Source: an uncultured Planctomycetales bacterium (GTDB lineage Bacteria > Omnitrophota > Gorgyraeia > Gygaellales > Profunditerraquicolaceae). Taken from it: DNA of 64,000 nucleotides. Made by a program: the position numbers and the translations under genes. The first letter of the stretch is position 1, and each line of letters starts with the position of its first letter. The stretch spans positions 31,848 to 95,847 of the forward strand of contig CAZJFL010000007.1 in the NCBI GenBank assembly GCA_964545575.1. Direction: 5' to 3'. The notes below the pieces were generated by a model that did not search any database, was not told where the DNA came from, and was given only the letters and a program-made list of their open reading frames with translations. Positions 38,156 to 57,990 of the stretch are shown one piece after another.

Positions 38156-38230
38156 GGGACAGTCCCCGCAGGAGGCGGGGCACCAAACCATCCGATAGGT
38201 TTGGGTGCCTAACCCTTCGGGGACAGTCCC
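38156..38230. repeat. Two-hairpin ~50-nt repeat element, copy 2, flanked by palindromic GGGACAGTCCC direct repeats
   Basis: gggacagtCCCCGCAGGAGGCGGGGCACCAAACCATCCGATAGGTTTGGGTGCCTAACCcttcggggacagtccc. Confidence 0.55.
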
Positions 38231-44642: not shown

Positions 44643-45071
44643 TTAATCTCGCTCTAGGGGTATGATATAAGTTTTTATAAACTTTTGGATATATTTCACA
44701 ACCTCTTCTTTGGCGCCAGGCGGGCTCTCTGCTACCCACTTAGCAAAGTTGTAGAGCGTCTGGGTATCAACTTTTAACCATTTTTTCTCTTCATATAACA
44801 CATAAAATAAGGTTGTCATGGCAACCCTTTTATTCCCATTTTGAAAAGGATGGTTTTTAGTCATCAAATAGAAAAGAATAGCCGCTTTGGTAATAAAAGT
44901 GGGGTAGAGCTCTCTCGCCCCGAATGTCTGGAAAGGAGTCTCTAAGCAACTTTCCAAAATATTGGGGAAGCGCGTTGCGAATTCGGGTATTGGTTCGTCA
45001 AAAGAAAATTTTTGTTGCGCAATAAGAAAAGCTATGTGCTCTACTTCGGCAACGGTAAGTCTGTACATCAC
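44643..45071 (-). CDS. doc: Doc (death-on-curing) / Fic-family toxin
   Basis: Fic/Doc motif HPFQNGNKR. Confidence 0.75.
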   Translation of the reverse strand: MMYRLTVAEVEHIAFLIAQQKFSFDEPIPEFATRFPNILESCLETPFQTFGARELYPTFITKAAILFYLMTKNHPFQNGNKRVAMTTLFYVLYEEKKWLKVDTQTLYNFAKWVAESPPGAKEEVVKYIQKFIKTYIIPLERD

Positions 45072-45337
45072 CCCGCCCCCAGCTTCTTTAAAACTTCGCC
45101 GTATTCATTCATTGTCTTGGTTACCGCTTTTTGAATCTGGCTTTTTTCTCCTTCGCTTAAACTATGGCCTTTAACTTTGCGGATCTTCTTTATAATGTTA
45201 TTTCTGGGAATAGCAAAAATTTTCCCGATTCTTATCGCCTCAATTTCCCCTTTTTTAACCTTTTTATAGACCGCTATCCTGGTTATTCTTAAGATTTTCG
45301 CTACCTGGGCTATGGTTAGATATTCACTATTTTTCAT
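45068..45337 (-). CDS. HTH DNA-binding antitoxin (excisionase/MerR-like) paired with Doc
   Basis: LTIAQVAKILRITRIAVYKKVKKGEI helix-turn-helix. Overlaps the doc gene by 4 nt. Confidence 0.55.
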   Translation of the reverse strand: MKNSEYLTIAQVAKILRITRIAVYKKVKKGEIEAIRIGKIFAIPRNNIIKKIRKVKGHSLSEGEKSQIQKAVTKTMNEYGEVLKKLGAG

Positions 45338-45410: not shown

Positions 45411-45539
45411 CAAAAGATAACCAAGCATAATTTACCACGCTATTTTTGGTTAGTCAAGGGGTTTTTATACGGCAGGATAAATAAAAAGGGCGCCTGATTT
45501 TTTCTTCGGCAGGGTTTATGGCTGATAAACCTGGAAGGC

Positions 45540-48500
45540 TCAGACGCCCTTTTGTAAAGCCACTTTAATTTCCTGCGCCGGCTTTCCGGATTCAAGTAGA
45601 ACTAACAATTCCCTTAAAGCCGAATCCGTAGCGCAGCAACTCTCTTCTTCTAATCTTAAAATATCGGCAATACAGCTTAAGACTTTATCTATCTGCTGAT
45701 TAAAATCGCTCTTTTCGCAGTAGGCGGCCAAATATTCCTTGATTCTTTGAACAGATGGCGTAATCCCGGCGTTGAGCATATTCTCTATTTGCTGCCATTC
45801 TTTATCATTGCTTGCTACAGGCATCATTCCCGGAATAGGCCGTAACGCAGGAATTGCCCCGGGCATTCCCGCAGAAGGCGGGACACCCGCCAATCCGATA
45901 TGGCGGGGTGCTGGCTGGGTAATAATCGGCAGCGCGCGGAAATCGATACCGCCGGTACCGCCATCAGCCTTAGCTGATGCTGGGATAGGCTGACCAGCTG
46001 GCCCTCTCGAATTATCGCTGCCACCCGCTGGACGGTTAAGGTCGCCTGTGGCATTCGGCTGCTCTAATAATAGATAAGCGCATTTCCTACCCGGTACATT
46101 TCGTTTTAATGTCACCCTGCCGTATATCTGTTCTATTGCAGCAACAAGATTAAATTTATCTAACATATCATCTATTCTATCGCCATTACAAACAATGAAA
46201 CCGCCGTCAGAAAGCAACCGAGCTAAATCGGCAAGATGATTTAAGAATCTGCTGTAAGAAAGCCCTGGTTGATTTGATTGGGAAACTTCTGGCCGTAATA
46301 AGAATTGTATTGCTTCGTAACTATAGATAATATCTATCTTCGCGCCAGGAAATCTTCGCTCTATAGCCTTCGGTAAATTTTCAGCGACATCTACAATGAA
46401 TGTAACATTGTCGGGGATGCCTCCTTGTTCCGTTTCCGGAAAATAGGTATCGCCGAAAGCAATAATTTGAACATTATTACTTCTCGATTCTTTTAATTTA
46501 CGGGATAGGTCCTTTACTTCTTTTAAATTACCTGCGCCCCAAGCCAAAATATACAATGTCTCGTCTTTACTGCTCTTGGCTTTTGCCTTAGCAACAATCT
46601 GCTCGAATAGGGATCTATTCAAGAAACGAAATCTTTCCTTAAAAATAACCGCTAGGTCGGAGTCTACTGTGTCAAAAGAACTATCGGAAACAATCCAATA
46701 GTGATCCGTATGCATCCCCATGCTGCCATCTTCGTTAAGAAAAATCCTGCCTCCAGTTGGGCTTTCTTTAAGTTTTCTTTTTTGATCCGGGGTTAACTGT
46801 TCACTAAACACGATTTGTTCGTTATTATCCTCGGCGGCGGGCGCGGCGGTGGATGGCTGCGGAACACCGCTATAACCTGTAGTCGGCACATTAATATTTG
46901 CTCTTAAGGCGCGCTCTCTGCGTCCGAGAAAATAATCTACCACCTCTTTTTGAATCAACAGGGCAGCTAAGGGGTTAACAACAGAATCGTTTATCCCTCT
47001 AGCCTGGTCGATATCGTCCCGGGTCTCTGTTAAGCTGGCAGAAACTGCGCTGATTCGACCGTCAGCAGCGTGGGATAACTCGCTTATCGGCCCGTAATAA
47101 CGCGGCATCAATTGCATGGCCACGGCTAAAACGCTATTGGTGGTCATCGCTTTTTCTGAGCGTTCCACTAGCGGAGCTGTTTTAGGAAAGGCTTGCCTTA
47201 GCGCTGCCGAAGTGCCTACAGGAAAATCCATCAATCTGCGCGACTCGTTGGCGGTATAAACAAGCTTAATATCGATTTGCCTAAATATTGACGGGCGGCT
47301 GTAAACCCGGCCGATAATTTCTGTAGCCAAGTCTCTGGTGCTCCCATCGAATGCGGTATCAATGACAATGAATCTTTCCCCTTTATTCACTGCCTCTTCT
47401 GTAATACCAAAGCCGGCAAAAAGATTTTTTATTTCCTGCTGGAAAGCATAGTCTTTACGTCCTGCTGGAGAGATCAAGCGGCCCCGTAGCTTCAATAGCA
47501 GCGGCATGCTGACGTTAAAAAGCACTATCCGCTCAGCCTCTGGGCTGCCTTTCAGCACTGCTTGTAAAGCATCATAAATCATTTCGGCGTCCCTGCCGGC
47601 GATTAAAATCCTGCTGTGGGTGGATAAATATTTCTGTACTTCTTTTATTATTTGCTCTAGATACCCGCCCTCTAGCAGATGCCTGACTTCCTGAAAAGTC
47701 AAAGAATTCTCAATCGTTGCAATATTAACTTTGGCTTCTTCCTTGTTACCGGCTACCCTGGTAGCCGCAGCTAAGATATCATCCCGCGTAAAACTGGCTA
47801 CTTCATATGGGTGCGGACGAAGACTAGGCCGAAAAAGATATTTTTGAATACGCTCGGCGGTGGGCGCGGCGGCACTTTCTTTTTCCTTGGCTGATGGCGA
47901 CGCTGGTTGCGCTGGCGCAGGAGGAACTATTCCTAGCGGTAGCTCAATAAAGAAAGTCGTGCCTTTTCCGATTTCGCTTTTATACCAAATGTCGCCGCCG
48001 TAATCCTTAACCACCATCCTGGCTTCAGCCAGGCCTACGCCGCCTCCGGTACTAGATACCCAAAGGCTGAAGATATCCTGCTTCTGCATTGCTTCAGGTA
48101 TCCCCGGGCCTTTATCATTAATACTGATAATTACGCGGCGGCGAGCAGCATCACCTGTTATCTGTGTCCGAATAACTATCGGCTTTTCTCTTTCCTTTAT
48201 ATCTACCGGCCCTTGTCTTTCCTTTGTGTGGCGCCTGGCATTATCGATGATATTGGTAAGGATTACTCGCAATCTCAGATTATTACCCATAATAGGCAAA
48301 GGACTTGATTTAACAAAACTCACCTCCTCGACGTGCGGAGCAACAACGCTATCAATCAGATCCCCTAAATCGAACAACTTTGCCTTCCCTATATTTCCTT
48401 CAAAAAACATAATCCGATCCTGCAAAATAGTTAAAAGGCCATTAAACTCCTTTCTTATCCCGTCTTTGTCTTCATCTACGTGCGGATCATCAGACAAATT

Positions 48501-51500
48501 CTTATGCAACCCAGCGATCAATTCTTCAAATTGGCCTTGGTATTGCTTAAACAATCCGGTGATCGCCCTCATCTCTTCTTGCCATTTCTGCGCCTGTTGA
48601 GTATCTGATCTTATCCCTAATTTACATTTCTCGACAACATCACTACGAAGACTAGACACCCTACTACAGAGCTTCTTCACAATTTCTTTAAAACCTATGA
48701 GATTATTAACAATTACTTTGCTCTCTCCCTTTGTATCTATAGCTCCAACATCATCGGCTAACATCTGTAAATATCCGGGCAAAGCGGCCACATTTGCAAC
48801 AACATTTAATACAGGTCCGTGGTACATACTGCGTATAATAAGGGCGATGCGCTCAAATTCATCTTCTTGGCTACGACTGAGCAAAGAGGAGGTGGCGGAC
48901 CCTTCGACTGCGCTCGGGGTAAACGGCTCCGGCGCAGCGGGCGCGGCGGTGGGCGTAACATCTATAGGCTCATTAAAAATACCAAGCCTACGGATGGCGC
49001 GTTCTATCCTCGCTAGTAAATTACCTGTACCAGCCGCCAGAGGATTAAATCCTTTGATAGCGCCCGAACGCGTATCTAGTGCAAAATCGCCCTCTAAAAC
49101 AGTTTCCTCTATTATCTCGTCGCCTGATCGAAGCATCTGCTCCTTGAGTTTGTCTTTGAGTTCCGGGTCCAAATTACGCGTATAACCGAAAACAAGTTGA
49201 AGATTACCACCTCCTGCCAATCTCCTTAATTTAAACAGCATCAATTTTATAAAGTTTTCTTCTGCCGCTGGGCTGTCTATGTGCGCAATCGCGCCAACGC
49301 GCTGCTGCCTGTCATATAATAATAGGCCTCTGCAGGCCTGAGGTTTTCCGGTGGCAAATGTCGCCACTACCGGATAAGGGCTGTTTGCGGAAGTCACGGC
49401 ATATTCGCCTTGAACCACGACAATATGTTTTGCTCCGTTTATCTCTATGGGTTCGGCTTTCAGGGCGGCCTTATCCGTTAAAATTCCGCCCCGGCCGGTA
49501 ATCTGGATAATTTGAGGAGCGAGGAAATCTTCAACGTCTGGAGAAAAATATACTGCGAACCCCCGGCCGCGCAATATATTAAGTAAGTGGATGAACATCT
49601 GATCATCAAGGCCGCGGCAATGTATAGACCCGTCCTTGCCTAACTGCACAAGCTCTCTGCCATCAATATTCTTAAAGATTATGCCCGAATCCCCTTGCGC
49701 AGGTTCTGCTTTTGCGATTACTTTCAGGGATAAGATTGTTTCTTCTAAATCCCGTATATCTGCGGCGGCCAACGGCAACCTTGTGCCGACAGGTAGCCTC
49801 TCCCCGGCTGTGCTCGGCGCGGGCTTGGCGGCGGACGCGTCAGCGCTCGTTTCAGCGGGCGGCGCGGATTGGCTCGGGGGAAGTTGCTCTTCTATCTTAA
49901 GCGCCTCTTCAACCGTAATGATCTTCACTGCTTTACCGCCGCGCACCACATAACGATGCTTGGCAAAATCAGCGCTTCCGGCTAAGATAATCGTGCCTTC
50001 CTTGCAACTATCCAGTATGTCCTTCCAGGCCTTTTCCCGTCCGCCTCCATAGCCAGGAGAAAAATGCATATCCACGTTGGTAAAGACGATGATATCCGGC
50101 CGCTGCCCAAAGGGCAGGGGGCTTTCTAAGATATCGTGCTGCCGGAATTCTTCGGGAGATAAAACTAAATCCTTTGAACTAAAAATATCGGTGCCCGCAT
50201 AGCGAAACGGCAGAGCGCGCTTCCTAAGCAAGTCAAGGTACAGTTGCGCGCTGCGTCCTCCGGCAGAACCTATTTCAACGATAAAAGGCGCGCCTTCTCC
50301 AAACTTGCCGGCACGAACCCCTGCTTCGACTAGGGCGACTACAAAATCAGCTACCTCCCTCTGGTAAATATCTACGACTTTCCCGATATTCTGCCGGCTC
50401 TCGGCTAAAGTGCGTTCTATGTCGGAAGTGAATACGGGGAAAAGCTCTAACAACATATTTCTTAGGTTTGGTTCGGCAAAAATTCTGGCAATCTGTTCTT
50501 GCTGTTCCTGAAGGGGCGCCTGGCTTAAATCCTTGCCGATAATCTGCTTTAGCAATAGACCCAGGCGCGGCAAATCGCGTAAGCCCCGTTGATCGCGCTT
50601 TCCGGCTAACTCCAAAATTGTTCCGTAGATACTTGACTCTTTAGCCTGCCTTAAAAATACAGCCCATAAGGAATCTTGTTTCACCGGAAGGCGCCGTAGA
50701 GTTTCTTGGCAGGAGAATTCGCTGCCTAATAATCCGCCATCGATAGACACAACAGCCCGCCCATCCAAATATATAGAATTAAAGCGGATTTCCTCCTGGG
50801 GCAGGCGGGGATCTACTTTTAGCGGGCTATTCTGGTTAATAAATTCCCGCAACTTTATAGTTAGCTTGCCGGTTAAATTTTCTGTTCCGGACTGCCGCAA
50901 CCATTGCTCCGGGGTTAAATTATCGTAATTATCCACAAAGAGCGCCTTCTGGATTAACCGGGCGACCTGATGCCCCAAGGGATCCCCTAATATTGCGGTA
51001 AGGCGATAGCAAAGAGGTTCGTGTAAAAGATATTCTGTTCTTAATTCGACAGGCAATGACTCTAAAAGCTCCCGGCTATAAGCTAAGTAAGTTTCCCCGG
51101 CCAGGCCAAGAGCATAATGATCAGGGCTTCTGACGATAGCGGAAAACTGCTTAAGGGATTTAGCCCCCTTTACTAAGTCATCGCGCGCCTGTACAATCGC
51201 CTTAAATATTGTTTCCTTTGATATAACCTGAGTGGCGCTTAAATTATCTAAAATAGCCTGCAAAATTACATTTTCTTTCAAGGCGCGTATGTCGGGGATA
51301 GCGGCGTTGATCCGGGAAAAATCTTGACTCAATAAAGCACTGTCTAAGCCCGCCAGCCGGCTCTCTACTTCACTTGGAGCGACGCCTCTGATGATCGCCC
51401 CGTGGCCTTCCTGGTCAATTCCGGCATCGGCAGGTGCGGCGGCGGCGGGCGGCGCGGGCTTGGCAGCGGACTGCCGAGCACCTTTTGTCTGCCGTATGCT

Positions 51501-54500
51501 GGCAATAGCCAAAAATGTAGCTCCTGACAACATTAAAACAGGAATACCGTAGGTAAGGCCTATTACCAACAATATGCCCCCAAAGGCAGCGCGAGCAAAA
51601 ATAGGAGGAACCCGTATCTTTGGCCTGTCGAATTCTCCTCCTTCTCCCCGCTTAGTCATCTGATTAACAGATCTTAATTCTTTTGCCGCAAGAGAATTAT
51701 CCTGTAATAGTATTCTCATCTTACCGATAAACCCGGCTATTCGATCCTTCAAATACTTCTCTACCCTTGTCGTTAATATAGACGTCTGGATCAGCGGCTT
51801 ATTTAACCCTATGGCATACCGATGTTTCAAGGCCATGACCAGATCTGCAAATTTCTTGCCTTCCTGCAACTTCTTAATCATAACAAAAACAGAATTCAGG
51901 AAATCCCGCTGGGTAGGAATAGCTTCTTTCAGCCCACGCAGCGCCAGATGATCGAAAAACTTGCGGAACTCTTCTATGATTGCGAATGCAGCTTGGTGTT
52001 CGCTATCAGTAAGCCTATTTTGTTGATGCAAGGATTTGCGCAGCTTGTCATATTCCTTCCGACGCCAGGCGATAGTATCAGACCAACCCATCTCTTCCAG
52101 AAATAAAAGAGCTATTTCCTCGGCAACGAATTCCTTTAGCGCCCGTATTTGTGTATCTACTACTTTTTCTGACGTTAACTCCTCACCTGCATAAGCGGAT
52201 AAGATGTTGTGTCCGATTTCATGGGCTATAAAACTAAAACAATTGTCTGCGGTACCAATACGGACTATAGTAGGATAACTAATAGAATAGGCGGCATTCA
52301 TCGCGTAGTTCTGTTCTTCAGCTTTTAACAACGTATTGCCCATGATGTTACGCGCCCACTCTGCAAAGTCTTTTTTGCTTATTGCAGCCCTGGTCCGCTG
52401 CAAGCTTTCTTGCAGCACAAGCAATACCGCCAATATATAAACCTTAGCCATCTCATTAGACAGGCTGTCGCTACCCGGCAAGATTGTTTTGACTGTTACA
52501 TTACGCTTCTCTTTTAACAAAGTTTTTGCCAGACGCAGCGCTAATGCCTGATCATCTTGGCTTATGTTTTCCTGCGCTAACAAGCCAAAGGCGTAAAGAC
52601 GTAATTCTGTAGGGATCACTTCTCCCGCTAACGTTTCTTGATTAAAGAGCTGGCGCAGGGTTTCTTCATAAGAGCCTGATTTTAATGCCCCGATGTCTAG
52701 TTTACGGCTATATTTCTGATTTATCCGCTGTATCAGGCCGCCTAACATCTCCCGCAGATAATCTACATTCTTGCTTTCTATGCATAACGCATTGTAAGTA
52801 TTAAAAGCCCCGTTCCTTGCCGCCTCGCCGGACTCACTACCCAATGTCCCTGTTATCTGGCTGTGTACCTCCTTTACGCAAGACTGATCCGACAATGATA
52901 ATAATGCCTTGAGCGCATTAAATTTACCTTTAGAGTTTCCCGACGCCACTTCTTTTAGAATGCGCTGCGCTGTTTTATCGCCTTGCCCTGCACGCCATAT
53001 AGTCTCGTAGGTTACCGGCCAGGCCTCATTTTCAACCCCTATTACGGTTCTCTGATAATCGCTAAGCTCTGCCCAGGCCTCAAGCTCTTCCAGAAGTTCT
53101 CTGACTGCGTTAACGTTAGCGATATCTTTCCTTAAACGCCCATCGCCGTTGCTTAAAAATCTTTTGGCTAGAGAAGCTACTTGCGGATGTATCTCGTATG
53201 CCCTATTTATCAGCACTTCTAATTCTTCCTGGCTCGGCTCCCGGTCAACAAAAATACCGTTATACAGCTGCCTGCCAAGCCGCATACTATCCGGGGAAGC
53301 CGCTAGGCTAGCCTGCGGACTACGTCCTATCAAAAGCTCCCGTAACTCCTTAAGCGCCGCCGCCGATGGCAATTCGTCTAGGTATATGGTAAAAGGATAC
53401 GCTTTATTTTTGCCGTCCCAATTATCAAATGATTGCGCTTGAGTGTAGTGGACATTACTAAGATTATGTTTTTGGGCCCAACTTTCTATTTTATCTATGA
53501 CCTCTGCTTCGTTTTGGACGCCATAAAAATATACCCTGTACTTGGAAGGCGCATTGAGCAAACTGCTGATATCGTTGGACACATGTGCGCTCTGTATTTC
53601 AGCAAAGATAAATCCTCCCAGACTAATACATGCGGCTAAGGCAGGCGCGAAAATCAAAAGCGTGCTTGGCATTAATCCCAGAGTAGTAAGCGCCAAAGCT
53701 ACCCAACCAACGAAGCTTAATCCGCTTGCTACTCCTAACCCGGCTGTGATATATTTAAACGCCTTAGCTACTCTATTTAATCTTTGCTCTTTACCTCGCA
53801 GTAAATCAATATTTTTTGATTTACCGCGGTCGATCAGTGGCTCGCGATATTTCACATAAAGCGTGGTCAGCCAAGGCTGTAATATTACGTGCAGAGATGG
53901 GCCTGCCCGTTGACGCTGCATGGCGCGGATAACCCGGGCGAACTCTATAGCGGATTGCCTACTTTCTGCTTTTAATTTTGTAAGCTTATCCTTCTGGTAC
54001 TTAAGATCGCCTGGAATCGATAGCATATACACTCCTATAATGACTACTACGGCGATAATTCCCTGAATTATTTGTGCTTCCGCGCTGCCGTAAGGATTTG
54101 CCATTTGCTTCAAGAGCAACGAGTCTGACGGCGAAGCTAATACTCTTGTGAAAGAGTCCAGCACTACTGCCGCGGCGATGCCCTGCAGCAGGCGCGTGAA
54201 AAATCCGGTCCTTGGCTGTGGAGTTACTTCGGTTGCGGGCGCCTCTTCGTTTTCGGCGGGACGCGGCGCTACTTTCTCTTCGGCGGCTGACGGTTCTACC
54301 TGAGGAAGTTCCAAAAGAGGCACCCCAAATACCTGTTGGCATGCCCTATCGCCAACTACGAATTCTCTGCCCTGCGGGCCTGCCTTATCTCTTATCTTAA
54401 CCAGTACAGCAAAAAGCTGGCTACGCGCCTGCTCTTTCTGCGCGTCAGACGCAGCGGTTACTGCGACCCAAACATCCAATAAATACCCCAACAAGGATGA

Positions 54501-57500
54501 GTCAGTATAATCATCAATGGTTTCATCCCGAATATAATCCCGGATACGCGCCATCGTCACTCTTCCGCCCTTACGGAGGAGGTCGTATTCTTTAAGGGTA
54601 ATGCCATATAAGCTAATAAAGTAAGATTCTGCGCCCCGAAATTCCCCTATGACCGCATAACTTTTTTCCAAGCCGGCTATTTTTTTATCTCCCTGCTCAG
54701 CCTTCTCGGTAATCCTGGCAAATATTTTGGCCAACTGATCAAGGTCCACCTCAGCAACTGTCCCAAGCTTTGTCGTAAACTTCTTCTCATAAATTTGATA
54801 AATACGTAGGAGTTCTTGCTGTACAACCGAGTTACTTTCCTTCTTTATCCTGGCTAGTAAATCTTGCCTATTCAAGACAAACTGGCGGAAGAACTCTGCC
54901 CGGAACTGGCTTGCAGAATAATCTATCTTGGTATATCCTCTTATGGCGCGCACTGCTCCCGGAAATAAAATTTCGTTGTCTCTTTCCAAAAACATACTAA
55001 AGCCGTTTTCCTCAGCCTTGAAGTAAGCGTCTTCGGTATCCTTCTTTTCCTGCGCAGTCAGCGTTTCTTCAAAGGCATGCCCTATTTCATGCAGGAAAAT
55101 CCGCGCCAAGCCGTATAAATCCCAATACCCTACTGCGCCAGGGCCGATGGAAACTTTTTTCTCCCCTATATCATAGTATCCGATATCATCTTTAAATAGA
55201 TAGCCTAAGGATTCGCCCAGCGCAAAAGACCGCACTGCTTTCTGCAATACATCCTCTGGCACATAAGAAATAAGAAAAGCGAATAATTCGCTGAAATGCG
55301 CTAGGATGTATCCACTAGATCTGGGCGTCTCCAGGTCTATACCGTAACGCGTCTTTAATAACTTCCGTAAAGCAATGTTTGCATCTTTCTTATTTTTCTG
55401 CTGAAGAACTCTCCATTGTTCATAAAAGCCGCTTGGTGTCTGCATCTCTGTTTTCTTAGTGGCGGGCGGCGGCGTTTTTTCTGGCTTGGCGGCGGGCGGC
55501 TGGGTACGAACCTCCCCCCCAAGAAGGATATAATCAATGTTTCCTAAAAGCGCTTCGCCACGCTTAATCTTCCAGAGCACATAATTCAACCCCGGTAAAT
55601 ACGCATCCTTGGACCTGATGATTTCGCCTTTCTCATCAGTTAATATCACAGTCATGAAATTGATACCGTTAATTCGGCTTGCGGTGGCCACGCCTATCGG
55701 AATCGGATTAAATGCTATTGTGTAATATGGCTGGCTGCCGTTGATTACGAACGTTTCTGCGACGTCGACTTTATAAGAATAACGCTTGATGATTTCAATA
55801 ATATCACCGATCAGGAATCGTTTGGCCAGGGCGGAGGGTAACCAATCATAACGATAGGCGCGCACATAGGGGACAAAACCATATTTCTGGGCAATCTTAA
55901 TCATAGGAACACTTACTGCGTGACCGCCTGCTGCTCCACTTGCTTGTTCTATGAAAATATCTTTGGCGCCCAAGGACCTTAATTCCGCGATCGCCTTTCC
56001 TACCACCATTTCTCCAATGCCTAAACCTTGTTTTATTTCGCCCATGTAGTACTTGGTACTGCCCGCAGCCGGATCATTAATAATAACATCCGTAATAATG
56101 CCACGCCGCTCCTTAGGATCGTAATGCGCTTGCACGAAGGCTTGATTTAACCCGTATAGCAAGTCGGTTCCGTGCCTCTCTGTAACCTTTCCTATAACCT
56201 CAGGCGTGTCCTCCAGCTTAATAGATAAATATTGCCGGCCTATCAAGTGATGAAAGATGCCGCCTACAAAACCAGATACGGAGATAGTCAACTTCGCTTC
56301 TTTCCCGTTTGGCAAAGTTATCGTAGATCCGGATTTTGTTGTCTGAAGGGTAGGTTTAGGTATTCGAATGAACCGATCTTTAAAAATAATCTTACATTTA
56401 TCCACTGCGATCTTGGCGCCGGCGGCAATATCTCTAAAGATCCGGCCGATAGCAGCCCAATTAAAGCTGGTGCTACTACGCTGGCCGGTAGGCAGCGCGG
56501 GCTGGATTTTTTCTGCTTGGGTTACTGTTGGCGTTGAATAAGTTGGGGTGGGAGTCGTGGTTGGCTCGGAAAATTTTTGTATATCTGTTACCGTTGTGAC
56601 TATTCGGCCATTCTCATATACGGCAATAGCAGGCACGGTAAAACCAGGCGTAGGAGTATGATTTACTACATCAAAATTTACCGAACCAGTGATTGCTCCT
56701 GGTGTCCAGTATGTCTCTAGGCCAAGGTCCGCTCCTCCCGAAAAATAGCTCCTGATGGTCTGACCATAGGGAGTATAGGCTGGCTCTTTGAGATTGTACT
56801 CGCCGTCTTTGAATGATTTCTGATAGGCTTGGAAGTAGGTAGTCTTAGACCAAGACTGCTTAGAAGTGATGCCAGTAAGGTCTTTCTTGTTAATACGCCA
56901 GCTATAAAGCCCTCCCTTACCATAGAACCTTTGCTTGAACCACTGGGCGATGATTAGAGAATAGTAAACTTGGCGCAGGGGAGCATATCTCTTGGCGGAG
57001 TTGATTTCTTTGGTCAGTTTAGGGATAATCAGCTCACGGATAAGCTGGGAGGAATATTCGTTCAGAGCCTTCAGGCGCGGGTCTTTGAAGCTGTAAAGAG
57101 CGGAGTTTTTCAGGTAATCCTGCTCCAGCATCACCTTAAGGCTGGCTTTGTAGATATAGGCTGAGGTGCCGGTTTCGCGGATGATGATCTCGCCCGGCAC
57201 AATCCAGGGCCGGGTTAAGGTGGGGATAGTGATGTTTTCGTTCCCGAAAAGCTCTTCTGCCTTCTGATAGAGCTTATCCCAGTAAGTTTTGCCTTCCAGC
57301 GTTTCCGGAGAAGTAAACTTAGCAGTGTCTTTTTTCAGCTGCAGGTCAGCTTCCAACAGGATTTTACCTACATCCGTCTTAGCTAAAGATTCATCAATAA
57401 TATTATCTTCGCCGTCCGGCCGCAGGTTAACCCAGAAAGAATCGTTGGAAAGAGCGATACCTACGAAGACGTAATTCAATAAATCTTTGGTGGAACTCTC

Positions 57501-57752
57501 GAGTTCTTGAGTGCGCGGGTTGTTGAGGTCGCCTTTGTCTAAAAGTAATTTAAAATTATTCTTGAGGTTGTCGTAGGAAAGATAACGCAGGTGCAGGGGC
57601 CTGAACTTTTCCGAGAAGATATTCTGATGCAGGCTGGCAAGATGGCCGGCAAGATTTAGCTCCACTGCAGCTGCTTGAGCAAAACCAGATTGCTCAAAGC
57701 AAAGCAGGAAGCAGAGAACAAACGCGATTATTTTGCTTACCTTCCGTGGCAT
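45540..57752 (-). CDS. Giant (4070 aa) multidomain secreted/membrane protein: signal peptide, GNAT-like region, two HEIGH zincin-like motifs, three TM clusters, two class-I-SAM-methyltransferase-like regions, histidine-kinase-type ATPase domain, Pro/Ala-rich linkers
   Basis: A single uninterrupted 12.2-kb ORF. The N-terminal signal-peptide-like hydrophobic segment (IIAFVLCFLLCFEQSGFAQAAAV) is followed by a GNAT-like motif QGLGIGEMVVGKAIAELRSLG (around aa 575). HEIGH motifs lie at about aa 888 and 1844. TM clusters lie at about aa 1190-1245, 1335-1385 and 2055-2090. MTase motif I VEIGSAGGRS is at about aa 2490, and ILAWGAGN...IIAFGD...GGFIV at about aa 3735-3855. The HATPase_c N/G1/G2 boxes (NIIDNARRHT, DKGPGIP, GGGVGLAE) lie at about aa 3168-3245. 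Confidence 0.7.
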   Translation of the reverse strand: MPRKVSKIIAFVLCFLLCFEQSGFAQAAAVELNLAGHLASLHQNIFSEKFRPLHLRYLSYDNLKNNFKLLLDKGDLNNPRTQELESSTKDLLNYVFVGIALSNDSFWVNLRPDGEDNIIDESLAKTDVGKILLEADLQLKKDTAKFTSPETLEGKTYWDKLYQKAEELFGNENITIPTLTRPWIVPGEIIIRETGTSAYIYKASLKVMLEQDYLKNSALYSFKDPRLKALNEYSSQLIRELIIPKLTKEINSAKRYAPLRQVYYSLIIAQWFKQRFYGKGGLYSWRINKKDLTGITSKQSWSKTTYFQAYQKSFKDGEYNLKEPAYTPYGQTIRSYFSGGADLGLETYWTPGAITGSVNFDVVNHTPTPGFTVPAIAVYENGRIVTTVTDIQKFSEPTTTPTPTYSTPTVTQAEKIQPALPTGQRSSTSFNWAAIGRIFRDIAAGAKIAVDKCKIIFKDRFIRIPKPTLQTTKSGSTITLPNGKEAKLTISVSGFVGGIFHHLIGRQYLSIKLEDTPEVIGKVTERHGTDLLYGLNQAFVQAHYDPKERRGIITDVIINDPAAGSTKYYMGEIKQGLGIGEMVVGKAIAELRSLGAKDIFIEQASGAAGGHAVSVPMIKIAQKYGFVPYVRAYRYDWLPSALAKRFLIGDIIEIIKRYSYKVDVAETFVINGSQPYYTIAFNPIPIGVATASRINGINFMTVILTDEKGEIIRSKDAYLPGLNYVLWKIKRGEALLGNIDYILLGGEVRTQPPAAKPEKTPPPATKKTEMQTPSGFYEQWRVLQQKNKKDANIALRKLLKTRYGIDLETPRSSGYILAHFSELFAFLISYVPEDVLQKAVRSFALGESLGYLFKDDIGYYDIGEKKVSIGPGAVGYWDLYGLARIFLHEIGHAFEETLTAQEKKDTEDAYFKAEENGFSMFLERDNEILFPGAVRAIRGYTKIDYSASQFRAEFFRQFVLNRQDLLARIKKESNSVVQQELLRIYQIYEKKFTTKLGTVAEVDLDQLAKIFARITEKAEQGDKKIAGLEKSYAVIGEFRGAESYFISLYGITLKEYDLLRKGGRVTMARIRDYIRDETIDDYTDSSLLGYLLDVWVAVTAASDAQKEQARSQLFAVLVKIRDKAGPQGREFVVGDRACQQVFGVPLLELPQVEPSAAEEKVAPRPAENEEAPATEVTPQPRTGFFTRLLQGIAAAVVLDSFTRVLASPSDSLLLKQMANPYGSAEAQIIQGIIAVVVIIGVYMLSIPGDLKYQKDKLTKLKAESRQSAIEFARVIRAMQRQRAGPSLHVILQPWLTTLYVKYREPLIDRGKSKNIDLLRGKEQRLNRVAKAFKYITAGLGVASGLSFVGWVALALTTLGLMPSTLLIFAPALAACISLGGFIFAEIQSAHVSNDISSLLNAPSKYRVYFYGVQNEAEVIDKIESWAQKHNLSNVHYTQAQSFDNWDGKNKAYPFTIYLDELPSAAALKELRELLIGRSPQASLAASPDSMRLGRQLYNGIFVDREPSQEELEVLINRAYEIHPQVASLAKRFLSNGDGRLRKDIANVNAVRELLEELEAWAELSDYQRTVIGVENEAWPVTYETIWRAGQGDKTAQRILKEVASGNSKGKFNALKALLSLSDQSCVKEVHSQITGTLGSESGEAARNGAFNTYNALCIESKNVDYLREMLGGLIQRINQKYSRKLDIGALKSGSYEETLRQLFNQETLAGEVIPTELRLYAFGLLAQENISQDDQALALRLAKTLLKEKRNVTVKTILPGSDSLSNEMAKVYILAVLLVLQESLQRTRAAISKKDFAEWARNIMGNTLLKAEEQNYAMNAAYSISYPTIVRIGTADNCFSFIAHEIGHNILSAYAGEELTSEKVVDTQIRALKEFVAEEIALLFLEEMGWSDTIAWRRKEYDKLRKSLHQQNRLTDSEHQAAFAIIEEFRKFFDHLALRGLKEAIPTQRDFLNSVFVMIKKLQEGKKFADLVMALKHRYAIGLNKPLIQTSILTTRVEKYLKDRIAGFIGKMRILLQDNSLAAKELRSVNQMTKRGEGGEFDRPKIRVPPIFARAAFGGILLVIGLTYGIPVLMLSGATFLAIASIRQTKGARQSAAKPAPPAAAAPADAGIDQEGHGAIIRGVAPSEVESRLAGLDSALLSQDFSRINAAIPDIRALKENVILQAILDNLSATQVISKETIFKAIVQARDDLVKGAKSLKQFSAIVRSPDHYALGLAGETYLAYSRELLESLPVELRTEYLLHEPLCYRLTAILGDPLGHQVARLIQKALFVDNYDNLTPEQWLRQSGTENLTGKLTIKLREFINQNSPLKVDPRLPQEEIRFNSIYLDGRAVVSIDGGLLGSEFSCQETLRRLPVKQDSLWAVFLRQAKESSIYGTILELAGKRDQRGLRDLPRLGLLLKQIIGKDLSQAPLQEQQEQIARIFAEPNLRNMLLELFPVFTSDIERTLAESRQNIGKVVDIYQREVADFVVALVEAGVRAGKFGEGAPFIVEIGSAGGRSAQLYLDLLRKRALPFRYAGTDIFSSKDLVLSPEEFRQHDILESPLPFGQRPDIIVFTNVDMHFSPGYGGGREKAWKDILDSCKEGTIILAGSADFAKHRYVVRGGKAVKIITVEEALKIEEQLPPSQSAPPAETSADASAAKPAPSTAGERLPVGTRLPLAAADIRDLEETILSLKVIAKAEPAQGDSGIIFKNIDGRELVQLGKDGSIHCRGLDDQMFIHLLNILRGRGFAVYFSPDVEDFLAPQIIQITGRGGILTDKAALKAEPIEINGAKHIVVVQGEYAVTSANSPYPVVATFATGKPQACRGLLLYDRQQRVGAIAHIDSPAAEENFIKLMLFKLRRLAGGGNLQLVFGYTRNLDPELKDKLKEQMLRSGDEIIEETVLEGDFALDTRSGAIKGFNPLAAGTGNLLARIERAIRRLGIFNEPIDVTPTAAPAAPEPFTPSAVEGSATSSLLSRSQEDEFERIALIIRSMYHGPVLNVVANVAALPGYLQMLADDVGAIDTKGESKVIVNNLIGFKEIVKKLCSRVSSLRSDVVEKCKLGIRSDTQQAQKWQEEMRAITGLFKQYQGQFEELIAGLHKNLSDDPHVDEDKDGIRKEFNGLLTILQDRIMFFEGNIGKAKLFDLGDLIDSVVAPHVEEVSFVKSSPLPIMGNNLRLRVILTNIIDNARRHTKERQGPVDIKEREKPIVIRTQITGDAARRRVIISINDKGPGIPEAMQKQDIFSLWVSSTGGGVGLAEARMVVKDYGGDIWYKSEIGKGTTFFIELPLGIVPPAPAQPASPSAKEKESAAAPTAERIQKYLFRPSLRPHPYEVASFTRDDILAAATRVAGNKEEAKVNIATIENSLTFQEVRHLLEGGYLEQIIKEVQKYLSTHSRILIAGRDAEMIYDALQAVLKGSPEAERIVLFNVSMPLLLKLRGRLISPAGRKDYAFQQEIKNLFAGFGITEEAVNKGERFIVIDTAFDGSTRDLATEIIGRVYSRPSIFRQIDIKLVYTANESRRLMDFPVGTSAALRQAFPKTAPLVERSEKAMTTNSVLAVAMQLMPRYYGPISELSHAADGRISAVSASLTETRDDIDQARGINDSVVNPLAALLIQKEVVDYFLGRRERALRANINVPTTGYSGVPQPSTAAPAAEDNNEQIVFSEQLTPDQKRKLKESPTGGRIFLNEDGSMGMHTDHYWIVSDSSFDTVDSDLAVIFKERFRFLNRSLFEQIVAKAKAKSSKDETLYILAWGAGNLKEVKDLSRKLKESRSNNVQIIAFGDTYFPETEQGGIPDNVTFIVDVAENLPKAIERRFPGAKIDIIYSYEAIQFLLRPEVSQSNQPGLSYSRFLNHLADLARLLSDGGFIVCNGDRIDDMLDKFNLVAAIEQIYGRVTLKRNVPGRKCAYLLLEQPNATGDLNRPAGGSDNSRGPAGQPIPASAKADGGTGGIDFRALPIITQPAPRHIGLAGVPPSAGMPGAIPALRPIPGMMPVASNDKEWQQIENMLNAGITPSVQRIKEYLAAYCEKSDFNQQIDKVLSCIADILRLEEESCCATDSALRELLVLLESGKPAQEIKVALQKGV
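45867..45911. repeat. Two-hairpin repeat element, copy 3, embedded in-frame in the giant gene (encodes PRHIGLAGVPPSAG)
   Basis: tCCCGCAGAAGGCGGGACACC-CGCCA-ATCCGATA-TGGCGG-GGTGC. There are 20/20 identities with copy 1 in hairpin 1. Hairpin 2 keeps the ATCCGATA loop with a compensatory change of the stem (CCAAACC/GGTTTGG to CGCCA/TGGCG). Confidence 0.5.
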
Positions 57753-57820
57753 TTTTTATAGGTGGTTTTTTGGTTTATCAGCCTTTATGTAGTAAATATA
57801 TACTATATAGGGGGGTGGTT

Positions 57821-57990
57821 CAAGGGTATTTGGGGGTGTTTGGGAAAGCGCTTCCTATAGGGACACTTCTTGTCCCAAAGCAGGGACGTTTCTTTAGTTA
57901 AAGCAAGGAGTGCCCCCGAATTTAGCGCTAGGGGACACTTTCCCGATTGGCTCGGGACCTGTCCCTAAGTTAGAATGGACATTTTAGACT
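57821..57990. promoter_or_regulatory. Array of GGGAC/GTCCC palindromes and hairpins upstream of the giant gene
   Basis: gggaca-cttct-tgtccc, gggac-ct-gtccc, agtgccccc...ggggacact and cagggacg: at least six GGGAC/GTCCC units within 170 nt. Confidence 0.3.

What the first reader, a model, noticed from the sequence alone, without database searches (positions are those of the whole stretch)
45540..57752. 12.2-kb single ORF encoding a 4070-aa mosaic protein combining catalytic modules that normally occur in separate proteins
One uninterrupted reading frame strings together:
- a signal peptide;
- a GNAT-like acyltransferase motif;
- two similar zincin-like HEIGH sites (IFLHEIGHAFE and FIAHEIGHNIL, roughly 950 aa apart);
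- three clusters of transmembrane helices;
- two Rossmann-type SAM-methyltransferase-like regions;
- a histidine-kinase-type ATPase (N, G1 and G2 boxes present) with no recognisable receiver or DHp partner in cis;
- Pro/Ala-rich linkers.

I do not know of a characterised family with this architecture. It has the character of the giant, poorly understood surface/envelope proteins of uncultivated lineages. The gene has no Shine-Dalgarno sequence, unlike most neighbours, and is preceded by a GGGAC/GTCCC palindrome array. A terminator-like nested hairpin follows the stop. It also carries an in-frame copy of a structured repeat, reported as a separate finding.
Basis: partly seen in the sequence, partly recalled or inferred. 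Interest (0 to 1): 0.85.

Follow-up and report, generated by a model that had tools for sequence, protein, structure and literature searches.

The report
Capped modular giant protein of Omnitrophota
The 12.2-kb gene is real and belongs to a large protein family found only in Omnitrophota, apparently undescribed, in which conserved head and tail domains frame an enzyme-carrying middle that is swapped wholesale between genes and genomes.

Summary
The ORF (window 45540-57752, minus strand, 4070 aa) is real. Its coding signal is native and in frame throughout. Pfam supports only a histidine-kinase-type ATPase and, marginally, a CheD/NTAN1-like deamidase. The two HEIGH sites lie in two different, very rare conserved modules, each with an invariant HExGH plus a downstream Glu. 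The GNAT and methyltransferase calls got no statistical support.

The main result is new. The first ~345 aa (signal peptide plus "N-cap") and the last ~135 aa (GGIDFRxLP motif plus five-helix "C-cap") define a large family seen almost only in Omnitrophota, with members of 0.6-7.4 kAA, often in tandem arrays. At least 25 loci share the window's chromosomal slot (gyrA-glmS-rsmI-[cap gene]-pyrR-pyrB). Their flanking genes are 70-88% identical and their N-caps 55-76%, yet their cargo is unrelated. The N-cap model is confident but matches no fold in the PDB or in viral structure libraries.

Best reading: this is a small relative of the known Omnitrophota multi-enzyme long proteins. It is exported and threaded through the membrane, with constant caps as targeting or assembly handles and exchangeable cargo. 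The caps' function is inferred, not shown.

The parts
45540..57752 (-). The whole ORF: 4070 codons plus stop, ATG start
   Evidence: In-frame codon-usage signal in 27/27 windows. Exactly one N-cap and one C-cap in the window, so it is not a fusion of tandem family genes.
57672..57752 (-). Signal-peptide-like N-terminus (aa 1-27): MPRKVSK / IIAFVLCFLLCF / EQSGFA|QA
   Evidence: Hydropathy. Family logo: KK n-region, 13-residue h-region, Q at -3 in 103/117, G at -1 in 82/117, Q after FA in 116/117.
56718..57671 (-). N-cap, the family-defining alpha/beta domain (aa 28-345), ending in SYFSGG
55458..56480 (-). Cargo module S2 (aa 425-765), with the GNAT-like motif KQGLGIGEMVVGKAIAELRSLGA...IAQKYGF
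   Evidence: Motif seen directly in the sequence. No Pfam or PDB-sequence support. Unverified.
54207..55382 (-). Zincin-like module 1 (aa 791-1182): HEIGH at 888-892, QFRAEFFRQ at 949-957
   Evidence: 8 homologues among 1.84 billion representatives. Invariant H888, E889, G891, H892, F950, E953. Weak profile hit to M3B oligoendopeptidase, E 0.04.
54000..54089 (-). Hydrophobic cluster 1 (aa 1222-1251, one TM helix), followed by a strongly basic 88-aa loop
   Evidence: Loop net charge +13.
53595..53744 (-). Hydrophobic cluster 2 (aa 1337-1386, probably a two-helix hairpin)
51813..52883 (-). Zincin-like module 2 (aa 1624-1980), within the 660-aa stretch between TM clusters 2 and 3: AHEIGH at 1843-1848, E1874, H1919
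   Evidence: 8 homologues. Invariant E1767, K1770, A1843, H1844, E1845, G1847, H1848, E1874, H1919. Weak profile hits to CapP, ArdC, Ste24 and thermolysin, E 0.03-0.18.
51495..51611 (-). Hydrophobic cluster 3 (aa 2048-2086, probably a two-helix hairpin)
49878..51440 (-). Cargo module S6 (aa 2105-2625). Its C-terminal ~190 aa carry a Rossmann/methyltransferase-like motif pattern (FIVEIGSAGG, YAGTDI, DIIVFTNVDMHF).
   Evidence: Pattern read by eye only. No Pfam or PDB-sequence hit.
48948..49790 (-). CheD/NTAN1-like deamidase module (aa 2655-2935), with a Cys...His motif PQACRGLLLYDRQQRVGAIAHIDSP at about aa 2804-2828
   Evidence: Pfam N_Asn_amidohyd at aa 2774-2858: 25.1 bits against a cut-off of 24 on the isolated segment, 20.2 bits in the whole protein. 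Motif. No PDB-sequence hit.
47931..48284 (-). GHKL (histidine-kinase-type) ATPase domain (aa 3157-3274), with N, G1, F and G2 boxes
   Evidence: Pfam HATPase_c, E 4e-18 (whole protein) and 1.4e-19 (segment). NCBIfam best matches are all sensor kinases. PDB kinases E 3e-8. Boxes.
46818..47855 (-). Cargo module S9 (aa 3300-3645), no family assignment
   Evidence: No Pfam or PDB-sequence hit. A PRTase-like motif (ILIAGRDAEMIY ... FIVIDTAFDGST) is my reading only.
46038..46790 (-). Cargo module S10 (aa 3655-3905), Rossmann-like motif pattern (YILAWGAGN, IIAFGDTY). The only cargo module shared with other family members.
   Evidence: Homologues P0171, P0172, L030 and L080. No methyltransferase hit with profile A6. 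GC3 0.31 over aa 3751-3900, against 0.39-0.64 in the other windows of the gene.
45915..45953 (-). C-cap linear motif GGIDFRALPIITQ (aa 3934-3946)
   Evidence: Conserved family-wide. A related GG-x-[DNS]-[FLM] motif closes the N-cap in many members, this one included (aa 339).
45860..45917 (.). In-frame copy of a 58-nt structured repeat, encoding the spacer of the C-cap (about aa 3946-3964)
   Evidence: the repeat finder family D1, with copies at 23250 and 38157
45543..45812 (-). C-cap five-helix domain (aa 3981-4070), with conserved IPSxxRIKEY and SCIADILRLEE
57860..57965 (.). Upstream GGGAC/GTCCC palindrome array in the 251-nt intergenic region
   Evidence: 6 of the window's 51 matches lie in 106 nt. 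Sequence. Similar clusters lie upstream of some paralogues (L007: 6, L009: 7) but not most.
57795..57823 (-). Sigma-70-like promoter candidate (TTGAAC, 17 nt, TATATT)
   Evidence: This is a consensus match only.
45455..45545 (-). Nested hairpin overlapping the stop codon, followed by a U-rich tract
   Evidence: -15.4 kcal/mol, z = -1.95, 9/200 shuffles fold as well. Not called by the terminator scan.

Best explanation
The ORF is a genuine chromosomal gene of an Omnitrophota bacterium. It encodes one member of a multigene family seen almost only in that phylum, which I call the 'capped cargo' family here.

**Family layout (shown).**
- Every member starts with a Sec-type signal peptide and a ~310-aa N-cap that ends in SYFSGG.
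- Every member ends with a GGIDFRxLP motif, a variable spacer and a ~90-aa five-helix C-cap.
- Between the caps lies cargo built from globular modules joined by Pro/Ala/Thr-rich linkers. Over evolutionary time this cargo is replaced wholesale or module by module.

**Cargo of this member.**
- Two unrelated HExxH+Glu (zincin-like) modules
- A CheD/NTAN1-like deamidase
- A histidine-kinase-type ATPase
- Several alpha/beta modules of unconfirmed identity
- About five membrane-spanning helices in three clusters

**Topology (inferred from the signal peptide and the positive-inside rule).**
- The N-terminal third (N-cap, S2, zincin 1) is exported across the inner membrane.
- Zincin 2 and the whole C-terminal half stay on the cytoplasmic side. 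That half holds the enzymes that need ATP and possibly SAM, plus the C-cap.

**Most likely function (hypothesis).** The protein is an envelope-anchored multi-enzyme protein of the kind already described for predatory or episymbiotic Omnitrophota. The caps would be the constant handles for targeting, anchoring or assembly. The cargo would be an exchangeable set of mostly protein-modifying enzymes.

**Status of each step.**
- Shown: the gene, the family, the caps, and cargo replacement at a conserved chromosomal slot.
- Inferred: the topology.
- Hypothesis: what the caps do and what the enzymes act on.
For: **The gene is real.**
- ORF and translation.
- Native in-frame codon signal in 27/27 windows.
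- GC like that of the neighbouring genes.
- Housekeeping context: gyrB-gyrA-tRNA-Glu-glmS-rsmI upstream, pyrR-pyrB-pyrC...carB downstream.

**The family.**
- N-cap: 439 homologues at 53-78% identity. All those that carry an informative organism name are called Omnitrophica/Omnitrophota, apart from one labelled Margulisiibacteriota.
- C-cap: 34 plus 23 homologues.
- In 46 complete reading frames both caps occur together, at lengths of 613-4210 aa. P0159 carries the N-cap at 7391 aa.
- Family genes often lie in tandem arrays.

**Cargo replacement.**
- At least 25 loci share the slot gyrA-glmS-rsmI-[cap gene(s)]-pyrR-pyrB.
- Their flanking proteins are 70-88% identical, N-caps 55-76% and C-caps 31-54%. 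Cargo shows no match, except 33% over 251 aa in L030/L080.
- Neighbouring paralogues have caps 68-79% identical and unrelated cargo (L076). L083 shares only one 228-aa module. L014 and L077 share cargo at 99% identity except for one replaced stretch.
- N-cap and C-cap identities co-vary, r = 0.71.

**Cap structures.**
- N-cap model: pLDDT 84, pTM 0.79, no known fold.
- C-cap: a five-helix bundle.

**Cargo modules.**
- HATPase_c.
- N_Asn_amidohyd.
- Invariant HExGH plus Glu in two rare module families, with weak zincin-only profile hits.

**Topology.**
- Basic N-terminus.
- Strongly basic loop after TM1, net +13 over 88 aa.
- Basic residues after cluster 3, seen directly in the sequence.

**Fit to published descriptions.** Omnitrophota long proteins are mostly SP+TM or TM-only, and methyltransferase, HATPase_c and GNAT domains co-occur in them.
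Against: - No experiment or structural match says what either cap does.
- Five TM helices would put the C-cap in the cytoplasm and the N-cap outside. In the roughly 30 of 46 family members with no cargo TM helix, both caps must sit on the same side. Either the caps act independently, or my TM count (crude hydropathy) is off by one.
- Paralogue cargo includes cytoplasmic-type enzymes: PGM/PMM domains, and PGK and enolase_N annotations. These are hard to reconcile with full export behind a signal peptide.
- No dedicated secretion genes recur next to family genes.
- Most cargo modules here have no validated fold.
- No independent assembly carrying the same cargo was found, so continuity of the 12 kb rests on internal evidence only.
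Confidence: 0.6

Rival explanations
1. It is a host- or prey-directed effector polyprotein. The caps would be a secretion or translocation device. The cargo would be an array of effectors (proteases, a deamidase, a kinase-type ATPase, transferases) delivered into the partner cell, where ATP and other cofactors are available. The protein's own zincin modules might cut it apart at the Pro/Ala-rich linkers. This would work like MARTX toxins or the polyvalent proteins of phages and conjugative elements.
For: - Conserved ends with a replaceable middle.
- Module types typical of toxins and effectors occur here and in paralogues: zincins with an LF/MtfA-like HExGH...AEFF motif (the resemblance is recalled from memory, not tested), a deamidase, ART-PolyVal/DUF3990, transglutaminase core, Metallophos and FHA.
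- The family-wide signal peptide, combined with cofactor-dependent cargo, makes sense if the target is another cell's cytoplasm.
- Omnitrophota are reported as predatory or host-dependent (PMC10066038).
Against: - No RTX repeats, no cysteine protease domain, no Walker A motif.
- No immunity-like gene or secretion system is consistently adjacent.
- Five TM helices in this member point to a resident membrane protein rather than a released one.
- Paralogue cargo such as PGM/PMM, PGK, enolase and HEAT repeats is not toxin-like.
- The gene sits at a fixed housekeeping locus, not on a mobile element. Only 2 hits were found in 2.9 million viral contigs.
Confidence: 0.17
2. It is an atypical inner-membrane signalling or regulatory scaffold. 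The exported N-terminal third would sense or process something in the periplasm. The cytoplasmic kinase-type ATPase, deamidase and possible methyltransferases would modify cytoplasmic targets. The caps would be oligomerisation domains.
For: - An intact histidine-kinase-type ATP-binding domain.
- A helix upstream that faintly resembles an H-box (SMYHGPVLNV...GYLQML; my reading only).
- The topology puts all ATP-dependent parts in the cytoplasm.
- Sensor kinases and NtrC-type regulators lie next to some paralogues.
- The combination deamidase + methyltransferase-like + kinase ATPase recalls chemotaxis adaptation enzymes. This is inference only.
Against: - No HisKA, receiver, PAS, HAMP or other signalling domain by Pfam, even at E<=10.
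- Cargo in the same chromosomal slot of related genomes is entirely different. That is not expected for a conserved regulatory circuit.
- Most family members have no TM helix in the cargo.
Confidence: 0.15
3. The long ORF is an artefact: an assembly chimera, or neighbouring genes fused by sequencing errors.
For: - Family genes do occur in tandem, so a collapse or fusion is conceivable.
- No second assembly with the same cargo was found.
Against: - 4070 sense codons in 47% GC DNA cannot arise by chance.
- In-frame native codon usage in all 27 windows.
- Exactly one N-cap at the start and one C-cap at the end, with no internal cap remnants.
- Complete family members of similar size exist in independent assemblies: L037 at 4210-4224 aa, L058 at 3995 aa, P0159 at 7391 aa.
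- No long internal repeats that could mislead an assembler.
Confidence: 0.03

Closest known systems
Very long multi-enzyme proteins of Omnitrophota ('Archaeovorins' of West-Roberts et al. 2023, bioRxiv 10.1101/2023.11.21.568195; 'multi-enzyme metabolic cluster' class and Pfam 'Module 1' of Nielsen & Lui 2026, bioRxiv 10.64898/2026.06.07.730766)
   Same: - Same phylum.
- Signal peptide plus scattered TM helices.
- Many unrelated enzyme modules in one polypeptide.
- Mostly dark to Pfam.
- HATPase_c, which those authors report together with methyltransferase and GNAT domains.
   Different: - This protein has 4 kAA, far below their thresholds of 10 or 30 kAA.
- No SecA_DEAD, C39 or S8 peptidase, glycosyl transferase or hydrolase, NUDIX or dockerin domain by Pfam.
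- Neither paper mentions a conserved N-terminal or C-terminal domain, nor cargo replacement at a fixed locus (text searches). West-Roberts et al. say the N-terminal regions 'generally lack identifiable domains'.
MARTX toxins (multifunctional autoprocessing RTX toxins); compared from my own knowledge
   Same: A large single polypeptide whose conserved N- and C-terminal regions flank an array of effector modules. The array differs between strains through recombination.
   Different: - No RTX repeats.
- No cysteine protease domain.
- A Sec-type signal peptide rather than a C-terminal type I secretion signal.
- TM helices within the cargo.
- The caps are globular domains, not repeat arms.
Polyvalent proteins of phages and conjugative elements (Iyer et al. 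2017; from my own knowledge), including the ArdC-type metallopeptidase
   Same: - Strings of unrelated enzymatic modules (zincin peptidase, methyltransferase, ADP-ribosyltransferase) in one giant protein.
- A paralogue carries ART-PolyVal/DUF3990.
- Zincin module 2 gives its weak profile hits to ArdC and CapP, among other zincins.
   Different: - A chromosomal housekeeping locus, not a mobile element.
- Almost absent from viral contigs.
- Signal peptide and membrane helices.
- Conserved caps.
Flagellins with hypervariable or enzymatic central domains (from my own knowledge)
   Same: Conserved N- and C-terminal regions with a central region that varies from almost nothing to a very large insert and can carry an HExxH protease.
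   Different: - No sequence or fold similarity.
- There is no evidence that the caps pack together or polymerise.
- Export would be through a Sec signal.
Two-component sensor histidine kinases
   Same: The ATP-binding (CA) domain, with N, G1, F and G2 boxes.
   Different: No HisKA/DHp, sensor or receiver domain was detected. The domain is one module among about ten.

Membership tests
'Capped cargo' family of Omnitrophota (unnamed; defined here) | N-terminal signal peptide ending in [EQ]Q[ST]GFAQ, followed by the ~310-aa N-cap | tested here: met
   aa 1-345 align end to end with 439 proteins at 53-78% identity. All 24 invariant columns are present. Logo.
'Capped cargo' family of Omnitrophota (unnamed; defined here) | C-terminal GGIDFRxLP motif plus a five-helix domain with IPSxxRIKEY and SCIADILRLEE | tested here: met
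   aa 3930-4068 match C-caps at 27-68% identity.
'Capped cargo' family of Omnitrophota (unnamed; defined here) | Both caps in one reading frame, with unrelated cargo between them | tested here: met
   One N-cap and one C-cap in the window.
Archaeovorin-type giant proteins (West-Roberts et al. 2023) | Giant size (the paper treats >30,000 aa) with SecA_DEAD-like domains and glycosyl transferase/hydrolase, NUDIX and peptidase content | tested here: not met
   4070 aa. Pfam finds none of these domains. Only the numerous-TM and multi-enzyme character is shared.
Omnitrophota long-protein catalogue, Pfam Module 1 (Nielsen & Lui 2026) | At least 10 kAA; co-occurrence of PF08241, PF02518, PF00583, HAD and HD | tested here: not met
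   Length is below the threshold. Only PF02518 is detected. It works like a small version but is not formally a catalogue member.
Sensor histidine kinase | HATPase_c catalytic domain | tested here: met
   PF02518, E 4e-18, 66 bits against a cut-off of 26.4.
Sensor histidine kinase | HisKA/DHp domain with a phospho-acceptor His | tested here: not met
   No HisKA-type Pfam hit on aa 2960-3280 at E<=10. Alignments to PDB kinases start after the DHp. A faint H-box-like string is my reading only.
Zincin (gluzincin-type) metallopeptidases | An HExxH motif conserved among homologues | tested here: met
   Invariant in 9/9 sequences for each of the two modules.
Zincin (gluzincin-type) metallopeptidases | A third zinc ligand (Glu) downstream of HExxH | tested here: inconclusive
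   Invariant E953 (61 residues after H892) and E1874 (26 residues after H1848) are candidates. Their role as ligands cannot be shown from sequence.
Zincin (gluzincin-type) metallopeptidases | Zincin fold or membership of a curated peptidase family | tested here: inconclusive
   No Pfam peptidase family passes (Reprolysin_3 E 0.18). Profile hits against PDB sequences are zincins but weak, E 0.03-0.18.
CheD / NTAN1-type deamidases | Match to the family profile, with the catalytic Cys | tested here: inconclusive
   PF14736 scores 25.1 bits (cut-off 24) on the isolated segment but 20.2 bits in the whole protein. It covers only profile positions 9-96 of 270. The Cys...His motif was read by eye. No PDB hit.
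GNAT acyltransferases | Match to a GNAT profile or fold | tested here: not met
   No Pfam hit at E<=10. No PDB-sequence hit. No similarity to the GNAT domain of P0179. Only a motif-A-like string.
Class I SAM-dependent methyltransferases | Match to a methyltransferase profile or fold | tested here: not met
   No Pfam hit for aa 2105-2625 or 3655-3905. No PDB-sequence hit with single sequences or profile A6. Motif pattern read by eye only.
MARTX toxins | RTX-type glycine-rich repeats and a cysteine protease domain | tested here: not met
   No GGxGxD motif. No such Pfam domains.
Polyvalent proteins of mobile elements | Encoded on a phage or conjugative element | tested here: not met
   Housekeeping flanks are conserved in at least 25 loci. 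2 hits in viral contigs. PHROGs match only the kinase domain.

The most novel reading that the evidence does not exclude
The two caps are the working parts of an undescribed Omnitrophota-wide system. The N-cap (a fold with no solved or viral relative) and the C-cap would dock to each other, within one protein or head-to-tail between paralogues. Interchangeable enzyme cassettes would then be displayed as a modular coat on the cell surface, or handed to a host cell. Very long Omnitrophota proteins would grow by adding cargo modules between constant caps. The related GG-x-D-F motifs that close the N-cap and open the C-cap would mark the junction where cargo is inserted.
Probability: 0.2. Interest if true: 0.85.

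Novelty: new variant of a known kind. Interest (0 to 1): 0.6.

Why it matters
Omnitrophota are widespread, ultra-small, host-dependent or predatory bacteria. Their very long, mostly unannotatable proteins are an open puzzle.

This gene shows that at least one large class of these proteins has a simple grammar. A head domain as conserved as housekeeping enzymes and a conserved tail domain frame cargo that is exchanged like a cassette, even at a fixed chromosomal position.

That gives three practical handles:
- two short domains to search with, which recover the family from fragmented metagenomes;
- a defined pair of domains to test for export, anchoring or docking;
- a natural series, from 0.6-kAA 'empty' members to 7-kAA loaded ones, to study how giant proteins are built.

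If the caps prove to be a targeting or assembly device, that would be a new bacterial way of deploying enzymes at the cell surface or against a host.

Tried and rejected
- **Full-length homologue search.** It timed out. The exact-sequence look-up found nothing.
- **Hit-length limit.** Listed hits never exceeded about 1.75x the query length (maximum 690 aa for a 394-aa query, 268 aa for a 154-aa query). Long relatives had to be found through DNA loci instead.
- **Joint alignment A1.** It combined N-cap, both-cap and C-cap sequences, but placed the C-cap fragments on the N-cap. I dropped it. As a result I could not model a short N+C member to test whether the caps dock.
- **afdb50 fold library.** It was unavailable.
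- **C-cap fold search.** Only generic helical bundles.
- **Other libraries on the whole protein.** PADLOC gave nothing. PHROGs and NCBIfam matched only the kinase domain.
- **PDB-sequence searches.** S2, S6b, S7, S9, S10 and the S10 profile gave nothing relevant.
- **The two HEIGH modules as duplicates.** Rejected: E 0.35, motif only. There are no internal protein repeats.
- **Orthologues with the same cargo.** None in GTDB species genomes or JGI metagenomes. Those scans need exact 8-residue seeds, so only close relatives could have been found.
- **A secretion system next to family genes.** Not found. Neighbours are housekeeping genes, regulators, an ABC exporter in a few loci, and toxin-antitoxin pairs.
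- **A phage or mobile-element origin.** Rejected.
- **GGGAC arrays as a family-wide upstream signal.** Present upstream of only a few paralogues.

Full report
**1. The observation**

The window holds one uninterrupted ORF at 45540..57752 on the minus strand, with an ATG start and 4070 codons. It is not a chance ORF and shows no sign of a hidden frameshift. I learned codon frequencies from 20 housekeeping genes of the same window. With these, all 27 consecutive windows of 150 codons favour the annotated frame by at least 38 log units. GC content (0.469) matches the neighbours.

The start codon is right. Homologues align from residue 1.

The quoted strings are present: HEIGH at aa 888-892 and at aa 1844-1848. 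Hydropathy gives an N-terminal hydrophobic helix and three internal clusters, at aa 1222-1251, 1337-1386 and 2048-2086. Pro/Ala/Thr-rich linkers divide the protein into about eleven globular stretches.

**2. Where the gene sits**

The context is chromosomal and housekeeping:
- upstream: gyrB, gyrA, tRNA-Glu, glmS and a 217-aa TP_methylase (RsmI-like);
- downstream: a small HTH gene overlapping a Fic/Doc gene, then pyrR, pyrB, pyrC and, further on, carB.

The organism is an Omnitrophota bacterium. Homologues that carry an informative organism name are called Omnitrophica/Omnitrophota, apart from one labelled Margulisiibacteriota. Syntenic MAG loci have GyrA at 76-88% identity.

**3. What the cargo modules are**

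*Supported by curated profiles.* Pfam and NCBIfam support only two things:
- HATPase_c at aa 3157-3274 (E 4e-18 in the whole protein, 1.4e-19 in the isolated segment). Its best NCBIfam and PDB matches are all sensor kinases, and its N, G1, F and G2 boxes are intact.
- Marginally, N_Asn_amidohyd at aa 2774-2858. It scores 25.1 bits against a cut-off of 24 on the isolated segment and 20.2 bits in the whole protein. A nearby string, PQACRGLLLYDRQQRVGAIAHIDSP, resembles the Cys/His motif of CheD/NTAN1 deamidases. That resemblance is my reading.

No HisKA, receiver or other signalling domain appears, even at E<=10.

*The two HEIGH sites.* I searched aa 790-1989 exhaustively against 1.84 billion representative proteins. 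It found only 16 relatives, in two separate groups.
- Group A covers aa 791-1182. It keeps H888, E889, G891, H892, F950 and E953 invariant in 9/9 sequences, within the pattern LHExGH ... QFxAEFFRQ.
- Group B covers aa ~1624-1980. It keeps A1843, H1844, E1845, G1847, H1848, E1874 and H1919 invariant.

Profiles of both groups hit only zincin peptidases among solved structures, but weakly. Group A hits M3B at E 0.04. Group B hits CapP, ArdC, Ste24 and thermolysin at E 0.03-0.18. The two modules are not related to each other beyond the motif. So 'two zincin-like sites' is supported by conservation, and 'two similar sites' is not.

*GNAT and methyltransferase calls.* These got no support. There is no Pfam hit at E<=10 and no PDB-sequence hit with single sequences or a small profile. 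There is also no similarity to a bona fide GNAT domain from a family member. The motif patterns are suggestive by eye and nothing more.

**4. The main finding: conserved caps**

*N-cap.* Searching the first 394 aa returned 439 proteins at 53-78% identity. That is far more conserved than anything else in the gene.

*C-cap.* BLAST of those hits back onto the giant showed that many ~600-aa proteins match aa 1-340 and also aa ~3900-4066, with nothing in between. Searches with the C-terminus confirmed a second conserved unit. It has three parts:
- a GGIDFRxLPIxTQ motif;
- a variable spacer;
- a ~90-aa domain with IPSxxRIKEY and SCIADILRLEE.

*Range and arrangement.* DNA scans of GTDB species genomes and JGI metagenomes gave about 100 loci.
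- 46 complete reading frames of 613-4210 aa carry both caps.
- P0159 carries the N-cap at 7391 aa.
- Family genes often lie in tandem arrays, for example four in a row in L032.
- One MAG (E14_concoct.bin.43) shows at least eight N-cap matches on five contigs.

*Boundary motif.* The motif GG-[IVLMA]-[DNS]-[FLM] occurs essentially only at two places: the end of the N-cap (SYFSGGxxL) and the start of the C-cap (GGIDF). One further occurrence was seen in the 31 proteins checked.

*Signal peptide.* It is conserved family-wide, including an unusual [EQ]Q[ST]GFA|Q end.

**5. Cargo is replaced, not merely divergent**

At least 25 loci share the window's slot, gyrA-glmS-rsmI-[cap gene(s)]-pyrR-pyrB:

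| Compared with the window | Identity |
|---|---|
| Flanking housekeeping proteins | 70-88% |
| N-cap | 55-76% |
| C-cap | 31-54% |
| Cargo | no detectable match, except 33% over 251 aa (module S10) in L030/L080 |

The slot holds one to four family genes, of about 850 to more than 4200 aa. Across about 1.3 Mb of fetched Omnitrophota DNA, nothing between aa 400 and 3900 of the giant finds a relative, apart from the generic kinase ATPase.

Paralogue pairs make the same point:
- L076_6310 and L076_11670 have caps 79% and 68% identical and unrelated cargo.
- The L083 pair shares one 228-aa module.
- L014 and L077 share 99%-identical cargo, except for one replaced stretch.

N-cap and C-cap identities co-vary (r = 0.71), so the caps travel together while the middle changes. 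Paralogue cargo is mostly dark to Pfam. Sporadic hits are PGM/PMM, transglutaminase core, ART-PolyVal/DUF3990, Metallophos, FHA, HEAT and acylphosphatase.

**6. Cap structures**

- **Docking.** Whether the caps touch each other could not be tested.

**7. Topology (inferred)**

- The N-terminus is basic.
- The loop after the first TM helix is strongly basic, with net charge +13 over 88 aa.
- Basic residues follow the third cluster.

With one helix in cluster 1 and two each in clusters 2 and 3, aa 28-1221 would be exported. Zincin 2 and everything from aa 2087 on would be cytoplasmic, which suits an ATP-dependent kinase module.

One caveat remains. About 30 of 46 family members have no cargo TM helix, so there both caps share one compartment. 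Here they would not.

**8. How it most likely works, and the rivals**

*Best reading (about 0.6).* This is a small member of the known class of Omnitrophota membrane-associated multi-enzyme proteins, built on a constant two-cap frame with exchangeable cargo. The caps serve targeting, anchoring or assembly. The cargo here is mostly protein-modifying.

*Rivals.*
- **Host-directed effector polyprotein, MARTX-like or polyvalent-like (about 0.17).** It explains cofactor-dependent cargo behind a signal peptide. Against it: the protein lacks RTX repeats and a cysteine protease domain, has no secretion neighbours, and carries five TM helices.
- **Atypical signalling scaffold (about 0.15).** Non-conserved cargo at an orthologous slot contradicts it.
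- **Assembly artefact (about 0.03).**

**9. Comparison with what is known**

Three papers describe Omnitrophota giant proteins as SP+TM or TM-only, multi-enzyme and poorly annotated. One of them reports HATPase_c, methyltransferase and GNAT domains as co-occurring. This protein works like a small version of those. It does not meet their size criteria and lacks their hallmark domains.

None of the three papers mentions conserved terminal domains, a tandem multigene family, or cargo replacement at the glmS-rsmI/pyrR slot. I therefore rate the gene a new variant of a known kind.

**10. Side features**

- The upstream GGGAC/GTCCC array is real and seems to belong to a small palindromic repeat family.
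- A 58-nt structured repeat occurs at 23250 and 38157. A 67%-identical copy lies in frame at 45860-45917, inside the C-cap spacer.
- The 'GTVP' strings in other members' spacers are what GGGACAGTCCC encodes. That link is my inference.
- The lack of a Shine-Dalgarno sequence is not distinctive.
- The 3' nested hairpin with a U-tract is present but modest.

Noticed in passing
window 23250-23307, 38157-38214, 45860-45917; also 57860-57965 and 38156-38230: A 58-nt repeat made of two hairpins occurs twice at 93% identity. The copy at 38157 lies just downstream of tRNA-Arg, in a stretch that overlapping ORF calls cover. A third, 67%-identical copy lies in frame inside the giant gene's C-cap spacer. 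GGGAC-N-GTCCC palindromes of the same flavour cluster upstream of the giant gene and near tRNA-Arg. It looks like a small REP/MITE-like element that is tolerated in linker-coding DNA. 'GTVP' strings in other family members' spacers are what GGGACAGTCCC encodes.
   Followed up: partly
window 45068-45337 (-) and 44643-45071 (-): An 89-aa HTH_17 (excisionase-type) protein has its stop codon overlapping the GTG start of a 142-aa Fic/Doc protein. This looks like a toxin-antitoxin-type pair, directly downstream of the giant gene. In other genomes the same slot holds other such pairs: NTase+HEPN in L037 (8612-9611), and AAA_14/DUF4143 in L032 (6630-7775).
   Followed up: partly
window 38798-41347 (-): An 849-aa ORF has the lowest GC in the window (0.395). 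Its only Pfam hit is a sub-threshold Intein_splicing match spread over aa 278-584. It may be a Hint/intein-containing protein of unknown host function.
   Followed up: no
window 46038-46790 (giant aa 3655-3905): Module S10 has a much lower GC3 (0.31 over aa 3751-3900) than the rest of the gene (0.39-0.64 in the other windows). It is also the only cargo module shared with other family members (L030/L080, P0171, P0172). This is consistent with a recently acquired cassette.
   Followed up: partly
L032 8091-24010; L014 1-16926; L018 10001-27241; L074, L077, L083: Family genes form tandem arrays of two to four genes, sometimes on both strands. Neighbouring copies have N-caps anywhere from 54% to 87% identical, so old and recent duplications (or gene conversion) coexist.
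   Followed up: partly
P0064, P0117, P0009/P0026; L020 cargo aa 443-768: Some family members carry glycolytic or sugar-phosphate enzymes as cargo behind the signal peptide and N-cap: phosphoglycerate kinase, the enolase N-terminal domain and PGM/PMM domains. Others carry HEAT repeats. Cytoplasmic-type enzymes behind an export signal are unexplained.
   Followed up: no
several family members, about aa 390-540 (L032_10986, L077_10001, L075_10001, L086_959, L043_5152, P0110): A two-helix hydrophobic hairpin directly after the N-cap recurs in a subset of members, as if it were a module type of its own.
   Followed up: no
L007 and L009 (both from MAG E14_maxbin.165), 350 nt upstream of the N-cap: Six and seven GGGAC/GTCCC sites lie upstream of two paralogues in one genome. 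This resembles the array upstream of the window's gene. Most other paralogues have none.
   Followed up: partly
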